DNA from: an uncultured Hyphomicrobiales bacterium
GTDB taxonomy: Bacteria; Bacteroidota; Ignavibacteria; Kapaibacteriales; UBA2268
Direction: 5' to 3'
NCBI GenBank assembly: GCA_964420565.1
Contig: CAYQTZ010000002.1
Location: forward strand, 2,960-27,040
DNA: 24,081 nt
In this document: positions 12,547 to 24,044 of the stretch, one piece after another
How positions within the stretch are numbered: the first letter of the stretch is position 1
How the letters are laid out: every line of letters begins with the position of its first letter
The notes under the pieces: generated by a model
The model's database searches: none
What the model was told of the DNA's origin: nothing
Seen by the model: only the letters and a program-made list of their open reading frames with translations
Made by a program: the position numbers and the translations under genes

Positions 12547-13062
12547 TTATATGCTGTTAAACGTTAGAGTAATTCTTCTTTTCTTTGAATAACTGACAAC
12601 GTGGTTATAAGTCGTTCTTACAGATTTCAATGATTGTGGTTTTATGTTAGGATCACTATTCTTTTTGTATTCAATGTATTCATTGAAATGTTTTAGAAAA
12701 CTTTTTTTATCATCTTCTTTCTTATTCTTTAATTCAGGTCTTAATCTCGAGAATAAAATCTGCTTAAAACTTCCTGAGCTTTGTTCTTCCCAAATAAATC
12801 CATCAGTCTTTTGCAATATAATCTCTTTTATTGTATTCTCCATTTTTGATAGCTCAAAATTATATGCCTGAGAATACTCAGCTTTTGGTTTCAATCTTTG
12901 AGTCTTTTCATTCCGGTCCTTATGTGCAATTGAAAATCCACTTGAGAATCTGAGTCTTTTTCCTCTGTATGAGATATGCACAAGAATTGCAGAATTAGAT
13001 AGATTTGGTCTCATTAAATTGAAACCAACATTGATTATGTTCTTACTATACTTCCTTGCCAT
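12547..13062 (-). pseudogene. N-terminal half of a tyrosine integrase (Arm-DNA-binding plus SAM-like domain start); catalytic domain missing
   Basis: FNL...ILVHISYRGKRLRFSSGFSI...RNEKTQRLK arm domain; FLKHFNEYIEYK...KSVRTTYNHV...LTFNSI then stop; no R-H-R-Y domain follows. Confidence 0.8.
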
Positions 13063-13097: not shown

Positions 13098-13129
13098 CAA
13101 AAATACATAATGTACTAAGTGTTGTCAAG
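13098..13129 (-). promoter_or_regulatory. Putative integrase promoter (TAnnTTTG -7 box; upstream TTGACA)
   Basis: Minus strand TATTTTTG at 13105-13098; TTGACA at 13128-13123 lies within the 23-bp repeat. Confidence 0.45.
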
Positions 13130-13144
13130 TTTGCTGCCACTTTT
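13122..13144 (+). repeat. 23-bp direct repeat copy 1 (ttgtcaagtttgctgccactttt), possible integrase arm-type site
   Basis: Exact match to 23618-23640. Confidence 0.85.
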
Positions 13145-13272
13145 TGTTGTTTTATATTTGTTTTATTTGTTTATGCAATAAAACTCATTTTAACTATTCA
13201 GCCAATAACCATAGTTTTGAAGGGTATTCAAAGAAATTTAAACCAATTGAAATTAAAAGGTTTGTAATACTG

Positions 13273-16928: not shown

Positions 16929-17139
16929 TCGAGTAAAAAGCAAGTACCGTTTTTTTTTACTGATTCAATATACAACCAGTACAAGTAAGAGAGGAAGTAA
17001 ATATTTGATATTATTAGACACAGGACTTCCCCCTTGCTTGTAAAGGAGCAAACAAGTGGGATCATTATTTATTCTTTTCACCCAAAAATTTATTTATAGG
17101 TAGCTAATACACAGACTCGACAAGTTAGGGGAAAATCTA

Positions 17140-17278
17140 AGACCATTGCAAAACCAAAGAAAATCCCCCTCTTAAAATAGAAAGAGCTTATAATATTATA
17201 TATCAATGACTTACCCCTCTCTCTAACTCGTAAGGAAGGGCCGGGGAGGGATCAGCTTTGGAGTTTTGCAATGGTCTC
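17140..17278. mobile_element. MITE-like element with terminal inverted repeats
   Basis: agaccattgcaaaac (17140-17154) and gttttgcaatggtct (17263-17277) form a perfect 15-bp inverted repeat; no ORF inside. Confidence 0.6.
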
Positions 17279-17296
17279 TTATTGTAATATGATGAA

Positions 17297-17380
17297 TTAT
17301 ATCCTACCCCCAATATCATCCTTTTTCTTTACGCCTTCTGAGAACTCGGCGAGTTTATTTTCGAATATCTCACTATAAAT
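17297..17380 (-). pseudogene. Degenerate PP2C/SpoIIE-like gene 3' end, copy A
   Basis: Translates IYSEIFENKLAEFSEGVKKKDDIGGRI*; DNA aligns to copy B (ccttctgagaactcggcgagt vs cctttggagaactctgcgagt). Confidence 0.6.
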
Positions 17381-17457: not shown

Positions 17458-17670
17458 TTATAGCAATTCCATAAATTTTTCGATAGACAGTCCAGATGAT
17501 TTTCCAATACCACCCATAGTATAAGAATTTATGGGGTTATTCCTTGGAATTGTTAAAATTATATCGCCATTTGTCATTATTATGTGTTTGCTTTGCCGAA
17601 GAATCCAAAAACCAGCTTTTTCAAAAGCTCTAACTGCATTAAGATGATTTATACCAGAAATTTTTGGCAA
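17458..17670 (-). CDS. hicA: HicA family toxin (mRNA interferase)
   Basis: 70 aa; AVRAFEKAGFWILRQSKHIIM (conserved His), TIPRNNPI...TMGGI; TTG start abuts the antitoxin stop. Confidence 0.8.
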   Translation of the reverse strand: MPKISGINHLNAVRAFEKAGFWILRQSKHIIMTNGDIILTIPRNNPINSYTMGGIGKSSGLSIEKFMELL

Positions 17671-17862
17671 CTATACCTCTATCTGAAGGGATTTTTCTCT
17701 CAAACTAAGCTCTTTTTTTGCTTCAAGATACTCAATAATAGCAATTTTGATATTTTCTATTGCTTCTTCCTCGGAATCTCCCTGAGAAAAACATCCAGGC
17801 AAATCCTCGCACCAGACAGCATAACCTTCATCACTATTAAGTATTTTTATATTATAATTCAT
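17671..17862 (-). CDS. hicB: HicB family antitoxin (short form, no DNA-binding domain)
   Basis: EGYAVWCEDLPGCFSQGDSEEEAIENIKIAI; GAGG SD before ATG 17862. Confidence 0.88.
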   Translation of the reverse strand: MNYNIKILNSDEGYAVWCEDLPGCFSQGDSEEEAIENIKIAIIEYLEAKKELSLREKSLQIEV

Positions 17863-17943
17863 AGACGACCTCATTTTCTTTTTAAACGATTATTATTTAT
17901 CAATATTATAATTTAATAAGAATCATAGTAATTAGAAATTAGA

Positions 17944-18048
17944 TTACACCCTCACCCCCAGCACCGCCACATCATCCCTGTTCTTTTCGCCTTTGGAGAA
18001 CTCTGCGAGTGTTTTTTCCAGTATCACTTTTTGCTCTGGTAAATGTAT
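17944..18048 (-). pseudogene. PP2C/SpoIIE-like gene 3' end, copy B
   Basis: Translates IHLPEQKVILEKTLAEFSKGEKNRDDVAVLGVRV*; DD-hydrophobic-G-V-R matches the final metal-binding strand of SpoIIE/PP2C domains; begins beside the vapC stop. Confidence 0.7.
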
Positions 18049-18049
18049 C

Positions 18050-18433
18050 TTATAGTCTATGAAGTTCATTAATACAATCGAATTCCTTATCTAAGGAGTA
18101 GAATGTTATTGAATTTCGAATACATAGTTCTGCAATTAAAACATCCGAAGGTGTTAAAGTTATTCCTTCTTTTCTTAAATCTCTTATTCTGCTACCAGCA
18201 TTAATAAAATCTCTTCTTTCAAAATCAAAGTATTTTAATATTGAAAACAACTGTTCAACTTCTTCTTTTTGTCTTTTGCTTTTTATGCCCTGAATTATTT
18301 CAAGTTCGATTATCCCGCAAATACAAGCAGAATCATTTTCAATCAGTAATTGTACTTTGTCTGCTACATCTTTATCAGAGTTCCTAAAGAATTTGATCCA
18401 GCAAGAGGAATCAATCATTATCAAATTTGCCAT
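18050..18433 (-). CDS. vapC: PIN-domain VapC toxin (start possibly ATG 18418)
   Basis: IMIDSSCWI, IELEIIQG, SDVLIA, SLDKEF acidic PIN motifs. Confidence 0.92.
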   Translation of the reverse strand: MANLIMIDSSCWIKFFRNSDKDVADKVQLLIENDSACICGIIELEIIQGIKSKRQKEEVEQLFSILKYFDFERRDFINAGSRIRDLRKEGITLTPSDVLIAELCIRNSITFYSLDKEFDCINELHRL

Positions 18434-18641
18434 TGGCTATCTCTTCCAGCTCTTTATGCTTTAGAATATCAATATTATCATCTATGTCAACATTGCCTCG
18501 GAGTGCAATCAGCTTCTGCTTTTTGAAAAGTATCATAAGATCTTTTAATGCTCTGTTGACCGCTTCAGTTTTAGTCTTCGACTTATAATGAGCGAATATC
18601 TCATTAATGATTTCGTCATCAATATTTATAGTCGTTCGCAT
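18411..18641 (-). CDS. vapB: VapB-family antitoxin
   Basis: MRTTINIDDE...TKTEAVNRAL RHH-type pattern; overlaps the vapC start; GAGG SD. Confidence 0.88.
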   Translation of the reverse strand: MRTTINIDDEIINEIFAHYKSKTKTEAVNRALKDLMILFKKQKLIALRGNVDIDDNIDILKHKELEEIANGKFDND

Positions 18642-18715: not shown

Positions 18716-18919
18716 TTATACACTCACCCCCATCACCGCCACATCATCTCTGTTTTTCTCATTTTGAGAAAAATAATCATGGGTATATTCTTTAGCATTC
18801 CGAAGCTCTTTCAGATGCGAATCAATTTTCTCCTGACCCTGCTTTTGGGCTTGTAAAGTGGAAAGAGTAAAAATAAAGAACATCACTGTAAAAACAAAAA
18901 ACTTCTGTAACATTTTCAA
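18716..18919 (-). CDS. Mini-gene copy C: signal peptide plus 44-aa stub ending in the PP2C C-terminus (probable internal-deletion product)
   Basis: AGGAG SD; hydrophobic signal peptide ending LQA; last 136 bp match copy D at 125/136. Confidence 0.55.
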   Translation of the reverse strand: MKMLQKFFVFTVMFFIFTLSTLQAQKQGQEKIDSHLKELRNAKEYTHDYFSQNEKNRDDVAVMGVSV

Positions 18920-18986
18920 GTCTCCTATAAAATTATTCTTGATTACTTTCGTATAGGACTATATTGTTAAATATTTTGAGTTCATA

Positions 18987-19253
18987 ATGGTTGTTCTTGA
19001 AAAAATTACTACACAGGAATTTGAACTATTTCATTTATTATATCAAATTCATACACTTAGATACAAAATACATTTTTTTGAAATTAAATACAAATGTAAA
19101 TTCAATGAATTTGAAGATAGCATAGAAAAAATGAATGTTGAAAATTTTGAGGAGTGGGATGAATATCTTGAATGGAAAGCTAATTCAAAATTGTTAAATC
19201 AATTACTATCTCAGAAAAAGGATATTGAAAGTGGAGATTTTAGCATTTCTTGA
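18987..19253 (+). CDS. Small acidic antitoxin-like protein (TumA-like, usual partner of DUF6516)
   Basis: FEIKYKCKFNEFE...EEWDEYLEWKA pattern; stop overlaps a short downstream ORF. Confidence 0.5.
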   Translation: MVVLEKITTQEFELFHLLYQIHTLRYKIHFFEIKYKCKFNEFEDSIEKMNVENFEEWDEYLEWKANSKLLNQLLSQKKDIESGDFSIS

Positions 19254-19308
19254 TAATTCTGAGATTGTGAAGCAATATTATACAAAACGAAGCAAATGCA
19301 AAGAATAA
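19231..19308 (+). pseudogene. Truncated DUF6516/TumE-like toxin N-terminus
   Basis: GTG-start MEILAFLDNSEIVKQYYTKRSKCKE*, overlapping the upstream gene; resemblance recalled, not searched. Confidence 0.35.
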
Positions 19309-19343
19309 TCGTATATTATTAAAAAGTATTTTGGAATTAAAAT

Positions 19344-19562
19344 ATGATAAGTAATAACATAGCAATTGAGCCGGGTAAACGCAGCGGAAAGCCCTGCATT
19401 AGGAACTTAAGAATAACAGTTTATGATATTCTTTCATGGCTCGCTAATGGTATGACTTTCGAGGAAATTATTGATGATTTCCCGGAGCTGACGAGAGAGG
19501 ACATCCTTGCTGCTTTGAAATATGCTTCTGAAAGAGAACAAAAACTCATGGTTGTTACATGA
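19344..19562 (+). CDS. DUF433 antitoxin
   Basis: PGKRSGKPCIRNLRITVYDIL...EIIDDFPELTREDILAALKYA. Confidence 0.93.
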   Translation: MISNNIAIEPGKRSGKPCIRNLRITVYDILSWLANGMTFEEIIDDFPELTREDILAALKYASEREQKLMVVT

Positions 19563-19891
19563 AACTTCTTTTTGACCAGAATATATCGTATAAGATTGTC
19601 AAAAGATTGAAACATTTATACCCTGACTCTGTTCATGTGAATATCCTTGGTTTATCAAAAGCAAGTGATATTGAAGTATGGAATTATGCCAGGAGCAATG
19701 GATTTACAATAGTTACTCATGATGTAGATTTTTCAGAACTATCTGTTATTAAAGGCACCCCTCCCAAAATTATTTGGCTTCGATGTGGAAATAATACAAC
19801 AAAACATATTGAAATATTACTATTGAAAAATCATTCAATAATTTCTGATTTTATTAATGATATAAATATATCAGTCCTTCAGATTTTCTGA
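19559..19891 (+). CDS. DUF5615 PIN-like (VapC45-like) toxin
   Basis: MKLLFDQNIS, SDIEVWNYA, IVTHDVDF, PPKIIWLRCGN; ATGA overlap with DUF433. Confidence 0.93.
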   Translation: MKLLFDQNISYKIVKRLKHLYPDSVHVNILGLSKASDIEVWNYARSNGFTIVTHDVDFSELSVIKGTPPKIIWLRCGNNTTKHIEILLLKNHSIISDFINDINISVLQIF

Positions 19892-19893
19892 AC

Positions 19894-20091
19894 TTACGCC
19901 CTCACCCCCAGCACAGCTACATCATCTCTGTTTTTCTCATCTTGAGAAAAACAAATATGGGTATATTCTTTAGCATTCCGAAGCTCTTTCAGATGCAAAT
20001 CAATTTTCTCCTGACCCTGCTTTTGGGCTGGCAAATTGGAAATACCAATAGTAAGAAATACCGCTGTTATTAGAATGGATAGCTTTTTCAT
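19894..20091 (-). CDS. Mini-gene copy D: signal peptide plus stub ending in the PP2C C-terminus
   Basis: MKKLSILITAVFLTIGISNLPA signal peptide, then QKQGQEKIDLHLKELRNAKEYTHICFSQDEKNRDDVAVLGVRA*; stop lies 2 bp from the DUF5615 stop. Confidence 0.55.
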   Translation of the reverse strand: MKKLSILITAVFLTIGISNLPAQKQGQEKIDLHLKELRNAKEYTHICFSQDEKNRDDVAVLGVRA

Positions 20092-20514: not shown

Positions 20515-20889
20515 CTATCCTTCCAAAACATTAAAAGAGAACTTAATATCTTCGGCAAATTCTTCACCACTTTCTTTAATGTCTTCATCATCTTTTTCGT
20601 AGTACCAATTGACCTTTGGTTCTTTGCCCTGCTCGTGGAATACTTCCAAAATATCGAGAATATCTAAGATAGCTTTAGATGAGCTAGTATTAAAATATAT
20701 GAATTTGAAGCTAATAGTTAAGTTGACATTACTTTTCTCACCATATTCTGTAATCAACTGAATAATCTGATTATAGAATTCAGAGGCGCTTTCAGGATAA
20801 GACTGTCCTTCGATAAAAAGCTCTCCTTTTTCTGCAACGAATTTAATTTCTGGAGTATCCTTAGCTGCTTCGATGAATAGATCTTGCAT
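20515..20889 (-). CDS. siaC: SiaC family regulatory phosphoprotein (DUF1987)
   Basis: DTPEIKF...IEGQSYPE...FYNQI...YFNTSSSKAIL...VNWYYEKDDEDIKESGEEF. Confidence 0.9.
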   Translation of the reverse strand: MQDLFIEAAKDTPEIKFVAEKGELFIEGQSYPESASEFYNQIIQLITEYGEKSNVNLTISFKFIYFNTSSSKAILDILDILEVFHEQGKEPKVNWYYEKDDEDIKESGEEFAEDIKFSFNVLEG

Positions 20890-20890
20890 A

Positions 20891-21433
20891 CTATGTTTCC
20901 TTTTTTACTTTTACATTAATTTTTAAGAATGAGCAATCATCATCTATAGGTAATATCTCGTAATCAATTATGCTCTTTGATTTGCGAACAATATCTATCA
21001 ATCCGAGTCCTGCGCCCTTACTGTCTGACTCTTTCACATCGCGTAAACGTTTTTTATAGAATTTCTTTAGCTCAGGTTCTTTCATGCTATTGATATTATT
21101 CAAATGGTCTGTCAGTTTATTGACTTTAGTATTTTCAATCTTATTGCCAGAGAAAATATTAAACCATTTTTCATCTTCTGAGAAAAGTATTATTCCAACG
21201 CCAATTTCTTTGCCTTTTATTCTTTCTTTTTCTGCAGAATAATGCATTATATTCTGTGCTAATTCAACGAAAACAGAGAATATCGTTTTTATAAGCTTGC
21301 CTGCCGATACTTTTTTAACAATAACATCGCCAATTCTGACCAGCAGGTCCTGAGACAAAGCACCATTGAATTCAAGAAGCACATTATCGCTTTTTGTATT
21401 AAAGTAATGTTTTAAAAAATCTACTTCAGCCAT
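20891..21433 (-). CDS. siaB: SiaB family protein kinase (DUF6272); likely start MAEVDF
   Basis: FSVFVELAQNIMHYS, FSGNKI, KGAGLGLIDIVRKS HATPase-like motifs; 1 bp from siaC. Confidence 0.88.
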   Translation of the reverse strand: MAEVDFLKHYFNTKSDNVLLEFNGALSQDLLVRIGDVIVKKVSAGKLIKTIFSVFVELAQNIMHYSAEKERIKGKEIGVGIILFSEDEKWFNIFSGNKIENTKVNKLTDHLNNINSMKEPELKKFYKKRLRDVKESDSKGAGLGLIDIVRKSKSIIDYEILPIDDDCSFLKINVKVKKET

Positions 21434-22300
21434 AGTACACTTTCCTTTTTTGTCAATATATTCATTTATTTTAACAAAAACAATGCCAATCAATATTTAT
21501 TGCAAATACTTATTAATGTCAGCTGCATAAGAAAAGTTCATATTATAAAATATCCTTAGCCCTTATATTTATTACCCTCAATAGATATGTCGAAAACCCG
21601 AGTATCATGAATATTTCTTATTATATAAAGGATCAATAGAAAATATTCGATAATTAATTAGTTATTAAAAAAAAGAAATGTGAGAAAAACAAGAAATATT
21701 TCATATATTAGAAATTAATATTTATTGCATTTATGAAAAGAAGAAGAAAAAACTTACACTTTAATACTATTCATGGAAATATTTGGGTAAGGATGTCTGC
21801 AAAAATGAATATGAAAAAAGATCATTTCTGAAAATGATAACTTTCCGTTGATTTGCATAACATATATATTACTAATTCAATCCAGCAAGCATCTTATATA
21901 GACGATAAATGAAAAACGATGCTGAACAATAATTCGCAATGTGATTTTATTGATTATTGAAAATCCCATCTACTAAATTAATGTGCTCTGGCAGCAAAAT
22001 ATAGATAACCAATATAGAAAAAAACCGATGAGCAAAGCCTTCCAAGAAGATGTATTTCTGGCAAGTTACTTTATAAGAGAAACAAGCATTATCAAAATAC
22101 TATCAGGTAAAAATTTCATAGGAATAGAATTACGATCTGTATTTGTAGTAGAGATATTAACTATAATAAGCGATAGCAAAGACGGCTGATCAGAAAAATC
22201 AATTTCGCAGAAAATTAAATAAATTCTAAAGCCGATATAATAATTGTAAAAGAAAAAGTGGAATATATGAACCAATTGATAGAAATAAATCAAAAAAAAA

Positions 22301-22331
22301 TTTGAAAATATTAGGAATTTCATTATCTTTG
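22301..22331 (+). promoter_or_regulatory. Bacteroidota-type promoter for rpsT
   Basis: TTTG (22301-22304), 19-nt spacer, TATCTTTG (22324-22331). Confidence 0.65.
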
Positions 22332-22375
22332 GAGTTCGTAAAACAGTATTATTAATAAAAGAGTGTATAAGGTAG

Positions 22376-23557: not shown

Positions 23558-23617
23558 CTTACTAATTCTCGTAATTAATTATCTTCCAAAAACTTATAGA
23601 AACAGCTGATTTTATGT

Positions 23618-23640
23618 TTGTCAAGTTTGCTGCCACTTTT
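23618..23640 (+). repeat. 23-bp direct repeat copy 2
   Basis: Exact match to 13122-13144; 60 bp downstream of tRNA-Glu. Confidence 0.85.
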
Positions 23641-23780
23641 GGGCTTTTTTGATGATTTTTATCCTTGATAGTCTCCATTTCATTCTCTTCAAATATATTT
23701 ATTCACTTATGCGGTTTTTTACAAATTGCTATTTCATTCCGATTGATTGATAATTTGAATCCCAAAAATTAGCTTCGATC

Positions 23781-24044
23781 TCACTTGCGTTTTTCATCAG
23801 AACACAATGTTGATATATTATTACTTGATATTTTCAGTCTCTCTTCCAACACCTTCATAGCGTGCTTTTTATTAGCTGGCTTCCATATGATGCCAGTTGA
23901 TTTCCTGTCTGAGTCAACAGATGTGTAAACGAGTATTGTTCCATCCTTCATAGTACGAGGATAGCAATAAGCAAACTTGTACCATGGATGAATCCAAAGG
24001 TTTTCAGTATTTTTAACTATTCTCATGATATTTTTGAGTTTCAA
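23781..24044 (-). pseudogene. Possible N-terminal (arm-binding-like) fragment of an integrase
   Basis: YTSVDSDRKSTGIIWKPANKKHAMKVLEERL resembles RKSTG...NKK.A arm domains; stops early; lies next to tRNA-Glu. Confidence 0.35.

What the first reader, a model, noticed from the sequence alone, without database searches (positions are those of the whole stretch)
18716..20091. Two open mini-genes with different signal peptides share an identical N-stub/C-stub fusion junction
Seen: copies C and D are uninterrupted ORFs (67 and 65 aa) with dissimilar signal peptides (MKMLQKFFVFTVMFFIFTLSTLQA vs MKKLSILITAVFLTIGISNLPA). Their last 136 bp match at 125/136, and 3 of the 11 mismatches fall in the two codons at the apparent junction (GAT TAT vs ATT TGT). 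Inference from recalled resemblance: AQKQGQEKIDxHLKELRNAKEYT looks like the mature N-terminus of Bacteroidota TPR-sensor proteins (AQKQGQ.RIDSLL.ELP.AKEDT). Each mini-gene may therefore be a TPR-sensor-PP2C gene with its whole interior removed at the same point. That suggests site-specific excision of a sensor/phosphatase cassette, gene conversion after one deletion, or a retained secreted micro-protein.
Basis: partly seen in the sequence, partly recalled or inferred. Interest (0 to 1): 0.65.

Follow-up and report, generated by a model that had tools for sequence, protein, structure and literature searches.

The report
Gutted sensor-phosphatase gene relics among toxin-antitoxin genes
The two mini-genes are real leftovers of a large TPR-sensor/PP2C phosphatase gene that lost about 2 kb of its middle once, in frame, and was then copied by recombination inside a collapsed gene array held together by toxin-antitoxin pairs; this is an instructive case of genome decay, not a new system.

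Summary
There are two open frames of 67 and 65 aa. Their last 136 bp match at 125/136, and 3 of the 11 mismatches fall in the two junction codons.

Residues 1-45 match the N-termini, and the last ~20 residues the C-termini, of the same 700-830 aa TPR + SpoIIE (PP2C) proteins. No TPR, membrane or catalytic part remains anywhere in the window.

The window holds four C-terminal stubs: A, B and the two mini-genes. They alternate with HicAB, VapBC and DUF433/DUF5615 toxin-antitoxin (TA) pairs.

The undecayed layout exists in other metagenomes: full-length gene, VapBC, next full-length gene. Two further decayed arrays (L021/L056 and L050) share the VapBC block. They have other cassettes and other flanks, and their breakpoints lie at stub borders.

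One external mini-gene (L021) has the same junction, the same derived residues and a third signal peptide. This points to one deletion, later spread by recombination through the conserved 5' and 3' coding ends.

Site-specific excision has no support. A working secreted peptide is not excluded: dN/dS is 0.2-0.6 on very few sites. It is unlikely, because an exhaustive search of 1.84 billion proteins found only this one lineage.

Interest is modest. The same scan also noted the stub/TA array on this same stretch (e1-5291008).

The parts
19894..20091 (-). Mini-gene D (65 aa). Signal peptide 20026-20091; N-stub 19957-20025 (23 codons); junction codons 19951-19956; C-stub 19897-19950 (18 codons); stop 19894-19896.
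   Evidence: The signal peptide plus N-stub is collinear with the 5' end of full-length gene 2 on L054 (77% over 117 nt).
18716..18919 (-). Mini-gene C (67 aa from TTG, 65 aa from ATG). Signal peptide 18848-18919; N-stub 18779-18847; junction 18773-18778; C-stub 18719-18772; stop 18716-18718.
   Evidence: From 18760 leftwards it is collinear with the 3' end of full-length gene 1 plus VapBC on L054 (75%). It is 89% identical to L021 from exactly 18850.
17944..18042 (-). Stub B: the last ~33 codons of a PP2C gene, starting about 10 nt after the VapC stop. It has no N-stub.
   Evidence: 75% identical over 32 aa to the C-terminus of the C260 protein. It is a mosaic: its 5' side resembles stub 3 of L021 and its 3' side resembles stub 4.
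17309..17371 (-). Stub A: a degenerate relic of the last ~27 codons, with a 9-nt gap.
   Evidence: tblastn; alignment.
18050..18641 (-). VapB (18411-18641) and VapC/PIN (18050-18433) toxin-antitoxin pair.
   Evidence: Pfam PF09957 (8e-13) and PF01850 (4e-12).
17458..17874 (-). HicB (17671-17874) and HicA (17458-17670) toxin-antitoxin pair.
   Evidence: Pfam PF15919 (4e-9). PF07927 scores 3e-4, which is below the curated cut-off.
18987..19891 (+). An 88-aa ORF (18987-19253), which is the partner of TumE in L021, followed by DUF433 (19344-19562) and DUF5615 (19559-19891).
   Evidence: Pfam. L021 homologues at 73-74% in swapped order.
20515..21493 (-). SiaC (20515-20889) and a SiaB-like DUF6272 gene (20891-21493). 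These are the upstream neighbours of the array, with no PP2C gene beside them.
   Evidence: Pfam 9e-41 and 9e-40. No PP2C interior anywhere in the window.

Best explanation
Each mini-gene is a remnant of a TPR-sensor/transmembrane/PP2C (SpoIIE-type) phosphatase gene. It keeps the signal peptide, the first ~24 mature codons and the last ~20 codons. About 645 codons between them are gone.

The ancestral state was a tandem array of such paralogues with type II toxin-antitoxin (TA) pairs in the spacers. One in-frame internal deletion produced the N-stub/C-stub fusion. The two retained segments are the most conserved DNA of this multicopy family. They then served as homology arms for recombination or gene conversion. 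This copied the deletion allele within the array and swapped what lies upstream of it. The result is three different signal peptides on one junction. Other paralogues were cut back to 3' stubs of 14-33 codons.

The TA pairs survived, probably because losing them is costly, so the array collapsed to TA pairs separated by gene ends. The mini-genes themselves most likely do nothing.

Shown: the homology of both halves, the intact layout elsewhere, the shared junction and shared derived residues, and breakpoints at stub borders. Inferred: the single origin, homologous recombination as the copying mechanism, and TA addiction as the reason for what is retained.
For: (1) Both halves map to one family.

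(2) The intact layout is seen on L053, L054 and L055: a full-length TPR+SpoIIE gene, VapB, VapC (68% identical), then the next full-length gene, which starts with a signal peptide and AQKQGQ. L054 is collinear with mini C's C-stub plus VapBC, and with mini D's signal peptide plus N-stub.

(3) The three mini-genes (C, D, L021) share the junction position. They also share residues that differ from every full-length relative examined: SHL for SLL, LRN for LPK/LPN, EYTH for EDTN, and FSQ(N/D) for FS.G.

(4) Window and L021 are 89% identical from exactly the Ala-Gln border through VapBC. Their signal peptides are 54% identical, which is no better than shuffles.

(5) Stub B is a mosaic of L021's stub 3 and stub 4, and a TumE/88-aa/DUF433 cassette lies between those two stubs in L021. 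L050 also differs from the window at stub borders.

(6) The N-stubs of C and D are 68/69 identical while the rest is 50/60 (p = 0.003). This fits conversion within the genome.

(7) G024 has four tandem paralogues, three of them with identical N-terminal 30 aa. This shows concerted evolution in the family.

(8) No orphan stubs were found in 80 family genomes, and no other mini-gene among 1.84 billion representative proteins. It is a one-lineage accident.
Against: Six apparently independent 3' remnants all lie within 14-33 codons of ~700. That is about 1e-8 if deletion ends were random. Plain decay does not explain this. TA-promoter protection is only an inference, and promoter-like hits are no more frequent than in shuffles.

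All three mini-genes keep an intact start, signal peptide and frame. dN/dS against L021 is 0.22-0.25, similar to VapC at 0.20.

The three junction mismatches in D sit oddly beside a nearly identical N-stub. No donor genes carrying the C or D signal peptides remain in this genome, which is only 81% complete.
Confidence: 0.65

Rival explanations
1. The stubs, and the two halves of the mini-genes, are the recombination sites of a mobile cassette system. TA cassettes would be excised and inserted at the conserved PP2C 3' core (and the N-stub) by a dedicated recombinase, as attC sites work in integrons. Alternatively they would move as circles by homologous recombination. The mini-gene would then be a by-product or an empty site.
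For: Every cassette border in three arrays carries a C-stub that keeps the same ~45-nt core up to the stop codon. Cassette sets and order differ between arrays, with breakpoints at stub borders. The 88-aa and DUF433 genes occur in swapped order. The array blocks are 82-94% identical, while the flanks of L021 and L050 match other contigs of this genome at only 66-72% and lie in different neighbourhoods. The narrow 14-33 codon range of the stubs is otherwise unexplained.
Against: The stubs have different 5' extents and no common outer boundary. They do not fold better than shuffles as single strands (z = +1.2 and +0.4). No recombinase lies in or beside the array; only one Pfam-supported integrase N-terminal fragment, about 4 kb away, was seen. 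The intact gene-VapBC-gene layout explains the stub positions as ordinary gene ends. No orphan stubs occur in 80 related genomes, so it is one lineage and not a general system. No skipping joints were seen in reads, though depth was only ~6x.
Confidence: 0.13
2. The mini-genes are kept because they work. A Sec-exported 43-aa peptide, made of the first helix of the sensor plus the last strand of the phosphatase, would have been domesticated as a small periplasmic or secreted protein.
For: Three copies are open, each with a start codon and a plausible signal peptide ending in a small residue, one residue, then Ala before Gln. There are no indels in 129 nt. dN/dS is 0.22-0.25 against L021. The excess of synonymous changes is borderline (p = 0.02-0.13, depending on the neutral expectation).
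Against: C versus D gives dN/dS 0.64 with 8 of 11 changes non-synonymous. The related array L050 has no mini-gene. At that position it has a 14-codon stub, and elsewhere an N-stub cut by a stop after 20 codons. Only one lineage holds it among 1.84 billion representatives, two metagenome scans and one genome scan. There is no Pfam hit. The C-stub is normally cytoplasmic and would be exported out of context. Low dN/dS can be borrowed through conversion from functional paralogues. Metatranscriptome contigs match VapC and HicAB but not the mini-genes.
Confidence: 0.12
3. The interior was removed independently from two or three different paralogues at one fixed point by a site-specific or hotspot process.
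For: There are different signal peptides on the same junction. The junction codons differ between C and D, as imprecise joining would give. A 9-bp (C) to ~13-bp (D) inverted repeat sits at the junction (z = -2.3 and -3.5).
Against: The mini-genes share derived residues on both sides of the junction that no full-length relative examined has, so they form one clade. There is no recombinase and no repeated motif in full-length genes at the two cut points. No orphan interior exists in this genome. The signal-peptide swap is explained by a breakpoint at the N-stub border. The inverted repeat follows largely from AT-rich codons for Phe-Ser ... Glu-Lys, and a 6-bp version exists in the intact L054 gene (my reading of the L054 sequence, not a dedicated tool result).
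Confidence: 0.05
4. The fusion is an assembly artefact of a fragmented metagenome-assembled genome.
For: The genome has 604 contigs and is 81% complete. Contigs break at family ends: C260 stops 70 nt after its PP2C stop codon, and L056 begins inside the N-stub.
Against: The junction is present in independent Logan contigs of the DNA run with no differences. It is also present in two JGI assemblies from other samples.
Confidence: 0.02

Closest known systems
TPR-sensor PP2C phosphatases of Bacteroidota/Kapabacteria (SpoIIE domain PF07228; the SiaA/RsbU-like class of sensor phosphatases)
   Same: The signal peptide, the first ~24 mature residues and the last ~20 residues are clearly homologous. 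SiaB- and SiaC-like genes lie next to the array.
   Different: The mini-genes have no TPR repeats, no membrane helix and no catalytic domain. They are remnants, not members in any functional sense. In this family the PP2C gene sits upstream of SiaB (contig C22 and G024). The mini-genes lie downstream of SiaC, where relatives have a kinase-like gene.
Chromosomal integron cassette arrays rich in toxin-antitoxin cassettes (e.g. the Vibrio superintegron; TA cassettes limit cassette loss, PMC13108822, PMC2654758)
   Same: TA pairs alternate with a short conserved repeat. Cassette content and order vary between relatives, with breakpoints at the repeats. TA addiction is a likely reason why the array resists deletion.
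   Different: There is no integron integrase and no attI site. The repeats are gene ends with ragged 5' borders and no attC-like fold. The intact gene-TA-gene ancestor is observable.
Orphan C-terminal modules downstream of rhs/cdiA genes (displaced toxin tips with immunity genes). This comparison is from general knowledge.
   Same: Arrays of 3' gene fragments of a multicopy family are each followed by a small gene pair. They are generated by recombination in the conserved part of the family.
   Different: Here the 3' fragments are the conserved end of the gene, not a variable toxin tip. The neighbouring pairs are unrelated TA families, and no full-length master gene heads the array.
Ordinary gene remnants from internal deletion, spread by ectopic gene conversion between paralogues
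   Same: This is the best-supported reading: one in-frame deletion that is then propagated through flanking homology.
   Different: It is unusual in that the remnant keeps an open, exportable frame in three copies and travels with a TA block between genomic contexts.

Membership tests
TPR-sensor SpoIIE/PP2C phosphatase | N-terminal signal peptide followed by the conserved AQKQGQ..IDSLL..L first helix | tested here: met
   There are 18/31 identities to residues 15-45 of P0020. The match is near-identical to the G024 paralogues.
TPR-sensor SpoIIE/PP2C phosphatase | TPR repeat region (PF13424, PF00515 and related) | tested here: not met
   Pfam finds no TPR in either mini-gene. tblastn finds no interior of the family anywhere in the window.
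TPR-sensor SpoIIE/PP2C phosphatase | SpoIIE catalytic domain (PF07228) with its metal-binding Asp motifs | tested here: not met
   Only the last ~20 residues (EKNRDDVAV.GV) remain. There is no PF07228 hit, whereas P0020, P0021 and the L054 gene all have it.
Integron gene-cassette array | IntI-type tyrosine recombinase and attI next to the array | tested here: not met
   All ORFs of 90 aa or more in the window were listed, and most of the larger ones were scanned against Pfam. One shows an Arm DNA-binding fragment (12547-13062). The ORF at 23781-24044 gave no integrase Pfam hit; its resemblance to an integrase N-terminus is my reading. No scanned ORF has a catalytic integrase domain.
Integron gene-cassette array | attC sites: imperfect palindromes that fold as single strands, with a fixed boundary | tested here: not met
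   Stub B folds no better than shuffles on either strand. The stubs have 5' extents of 14-33 codons.
Type II toxin-antitoxin modules (neighbours, not the mini-genes) | Adjacent small toxin and antitoxin genes with family-specific domains | tested here: met
   VapB/PIN, HicB/HicA (HicA below the curated cut-off) and DUF433/DUF5615.
Conserved secreted micro-protein family | Intact homologues across several lineages under purifying selection | tested here: not met
   There is one external homologue (P0002) in one lineage. dN/dS is 0.22-0.64 on 8-15 changes. The frame is broken or absent in L050.

The most novel reading that the evidence does not exclude
The conserved 5' and 3' coding ends of a multicopy sensor-phosphatase family act as portable homology arms or recombination sites. 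Through them, TA cassettes and even a deletion allele are excised, shuffled and carried between genomes. This would be an integron-like cassette array that needs no integron integrase, with the mini-gene as its smallest unit (left arm fused to right arm).
Probability: 0.18. Interest if true: 0.65.

Novelty: new member of a known kind. Interest (0 to 1): 0.33.

Why it matters
The locus offers an unusually readable series. The intact gene-TA-gene layout, three differently collapsed arrays and a propagated in-frame deletion are all visible together. It shows how conserved ends of a multicopy gene family drive ectopic recombination, and how toxin-antitoxin pairs can outlive the genes around them.

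For annotation, the 65-aa 'hypothetical secreted proteins' and the 33-41 aa ORFs here should be called gene remnants. Only if the stubs prove to be true recombination sites would it bear on the open question of how chromosomal TA modules move.

Tried and rejected
- **Wider search for mini-genes.** I ran a degenerate-pattern scan and a junction-specific DNA pattern on the metagenome contigs and a scan of 185,579 species genomes. No further mini-genes turned up; the only hits were N-termini of full-length genes.
- **Orphan stubs in relatives.** None were found in 80 genomes of the family.
- **Read-level test for excision or full-length alleles.** The source-like DNA run has only ~6x depth and is held as contigs. 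It showed no joints in the array, which is uninformative about rare forms.
- **attC-like folding of the stubs.** Rejected.
- **Sigma-70 promoter scan.** Hits were no more frequent than in shuffles. The TTGGAA-17-TATATT site 9 nt after mini C's stop is therefore only a candidate VapBC promoter.
- **Quasi-palindrome template switching as the cause of the three clustered junction changes in D.** Two of the three changes extend the hairpin but the third does not, and the changes do not form a contiguous tract. This is not supported (my analysis of the fold).
- **Junction residues HDYF as a third retained piece from the start of the SpoIIE domain.** The conserved motif is K(D/E)YF, and GATTATTTT is exact in L040 and L042. 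BLASTP gives E = 0.13, so this cannot be told from chance.
- **Mini D as the eroded cognate SiaA of the neighbouring SiaB/SiaC.** This is unlikely. The PP2C gene lies upstream of SiaB in contig C22 and in G024, and relatives have a kinase-like gene after SiaC.
- **Structure prediction.** Not run, because three near-identical sequences would give no useful model.

Full report
**Observation.** From the Ala codon before Gln-Lys-Gln to the stop, the two copies are collinear without gaps. The 129-nt mature parts differ at 11 positions, three of them in the two junction codons GAT TAT versus ATT TGT. The clustering is mildly non-random (p about 0.01).

Similarity is uneven along the peptide: N-stub 1/69 mismatches, junction 3/6, C-stub 7/54 (Fisher p = 0.003). 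The signal peptides are diverged homologues rather than unrelated sequences. C versus D is 40/69 nt identical (z = 4). D's signal peptide is 50/64 identical to that of a full-length gene on L054 (z = 9.5).

Independent Logan contigs of a sediment DNA run cover both junctions without a difference. Two JGI assemblies from other samples carry the same junction. The feature is real.

**What the two halves are.** In 60 relatives, residues 1-45 of mini D match only the N-termini of frames of 480-950 aa. The last ~20 residues match the C-terminus of a 714-aa TPR/transmembrane/PP2C protein on contig C260 of the same genome. A Kapabacteria genome (G024, named) has four tandem paralogues that begin with a signal peptide and then AQKQGQEKIDSLLAELPNAKEDTNKV.

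An exhaustive phmmer run over 1.84 billion representative proteins returned three hits. One was the external mini-gene P0002. The other two were proteins of 751 and 761 aa, each matched in two stretches. Both have TPR repeats and a SpoIIE domain. BLASTP puts the two halves of the mini-gene at residues 15-45 and 717-751 of one of them. No TPR, membrane or catalytic part of the family is left anywhere in the window. About 645 codons are missing, and the deletion is in frame.

**Setting.** Read on the minus strand, the order is as follows:
- SiaB-like gene, SiaC, then a 420-nt gap
- mini D
- DUF5615/DUF433 and an 88-aa ORF, on the other strand
- mini C
- VapB, VapC
- stub B (last ~33 codons)
- HicB, HicA
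- stub A (degenerate, ~27 codons)

The window therefore holds four copies of the PP2C 3' end, and two of them carry an N-stub. The same scan noted this array separately (e1-5291008). I reached it independently.

**The undecayed state and other arrays.** VapC homologues led to contigs L053, L054 and L055. There a full-length TPR+SpoIIE gene is followed by VapB, by VapC (68% identical), and 18 nt later by the next full-length gene. L054 is collinear with mini C's C-stub plus VapBC (75%). It is also collinear with mini D's signal peptide plus N-stub (77%). The stubs are therefore ordinary gene ends left in place.

Two more collapsed arrays exist:
- **L021, with L056 from a sibling sample:** stub, a 70-aa/PIN pair, a mini-gene with a third signal peptide, VapBC (90%), stub, TumE/88-aa/DUF433, stub, HicBA.
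- **L050:** stub, DUF4160/DUF2442, a 14-codon stub, VapBC (84%), a 32-codon stub, a TumE fragment and the 88-aa gene. It ends with a signal peptide plus N-stub cut by a stop after 20 codons.

Their outer flanks match other contigs of this genome at only 66-72%, while the shared blocks are 82-94% identical. This suggests that the block has moved or sits on a mobile island. That step is inference.

**One deletion or several.** The three mini-genes share the junction position. They also share residues that no full-length relative examined has, on both sides of the junction: SHL, LRN and EYTH in the N-stub, and N or D in place of Gly in the C-stub. That points to one origin.

The different signal peptides are explained by recombination at the N-stub border. 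Window and L021 are 89% identical from exactly the Ala-Gln border through VapBC. Upstream of that border they are no more alike than shuffles. Stub B is a mosaic of L021's stubs 3 and 4, and a whole cassette lies between those two stubs in L021. The N-stub is conserved at the DNA level even between genera. Tandem paralogues in G024 have identical 5' ends. Ectopic exchange through these segments is therefore expected. The near-identity of the two N-stubs within this genome fits recent conversion.

**Function.** dN/dS is 0.64 for C versus D, and 0.22-0.25 against L021, on 8-15 changes. VapB, VapC, HicB and HicA give 0.12, 0.20, 0.33 and 0.07. This is inconclusive, and conversion from functional paralogues could mimic constraint.

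Several points argue against a working peptide:
- It occurs in a single lineage.
- L050 lacks it.
- It has no domain hit.
- A normally cytoplasmic strand would be exported out of context.

Metatranscriptome contigs from salt lakes match VapC and HicAB pieces but not the mini-genes, which proves little.

**Unexplained.** Six apparently independent 3' remnants span only 14-33 codons out of ~700. I infer that deletions stop where they would damage the neighbouring TA pair or its promoter. TA loci are known to oppose deletions (PMC2654758, citing Szekeres et al. 2007; PMC13108822). The promoter scan gives no support for this. The stubs do not fold like attC sites, and no recombinase is nearby.

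An inverted repeat of 9 bp (C) to ~13 bp (D) sits at the junction. It stems largely from AT-rich Phe-Ser and Glu-Lys codons. Two of D's three junction changes lengthen it.

**Verdict.** The most likely history is one in-frame internal deletion, propagated by recombination through conserved family ends within a TA-retained, collapsed paralogue array. The mini-genes are probably inert. It is a clear example of a known kind of event and is of modest interest. There is a minority chance (about 0.18) that the gene ends serve as genuine cassette-exchange sites.

Noticed in passing
window 17139-17277: A ~140-nt element with terminal inverted repeats (AGACCATTGCAAAAC ... GTTTTGCAATGGTCT). It gives 181 BLAST hits in this genome. 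Its contig depth in the DNA run is 62-170, against ~6 for the surroundings. It looks like a MITE and lies between stub A and the T9SS gene.
   Followed up: partly
window 20515-22375: The SiaB-like/SiaC pair has no PP2C gene upstream. About 880 nt without a credible ORF separate it from rpsT. A second, complete PP2C-SiaB-SiaC locus lies on contig C22. In relatives, the gene after SiaC is kinase-like.
   Followed up: partly
window 18740-18790 and 19918-19968: An inverted repeat lies at the fusion junction: TTTTTCTCA / TGAGAAAAA with a 3-nt loop. In mini D it is extended to ~13 bp plus 3. DNA fold z-scores are -2.3 and -3.5. Two of D's three junction substitutions add pairs.
   Followed up: partly
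window 18773-18784: The junction residues HDYF equal a conserved motif, K(D/E)YF, at the start of the SpoIIE domain. The 9-mer GATTATTTT is exact in two relatives (L040, L042). This could be a third retained fragment or chance.
   Followed up: partly
window 18016-18308 and 17564-17803: Salt-lake metatranscriptome contigs (runs X2, X3) match VapC and HicAB with no differences, although the window's best DNA holder is a sediment sample. The TA blocks are present, and perhaps expressed, in another habitat.
   Followed up: no
window 12547-13062, 13122-13166, 23618-23662, 23781-24044: An Arm-DNA-binding integrase N-terminal fragment (12547-13062) and a second short ORF (23781-24044) each lie beside a copy of a 45-nt repeat. 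The second ORF looks integrase-like by eye but has no Pfam support. tRNA-Glu ends at 23558. The TA array may lie inside an old integrated island, as note e1-5291012 suggests.
   Followed up: no
G000 contig C260:1-172 and L056:1-20: Assembly breaks coincide with family ends. C260 stops 70 nt after its PP2C stop codon, and L056 starts inside the N-stub. This is as expected if these segments are repeated in the communities.
   Followed up: no
L022 (G024:C1:444000-461000): Four tandem TPR-PP2C paralogues (826, 746, 746 and 826 aa) plus a TPR histidine kinase lie upstream of SiaB/SiaC. Three of the paralogues have identical N-terminal 30 residues, and some share C-terminal tails. This is concerted evolution or domain shuffling within the array.
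   Followed up: partly
L023 7922-8308 (G034): A VapC of the same subfamily follows a TPR-sensor adenylate/guanylate-cyclase-type gene. The link between this VapBC lineage and TPR-sensor genes is therefore wider than the PP2C output type.
   Followed up: no
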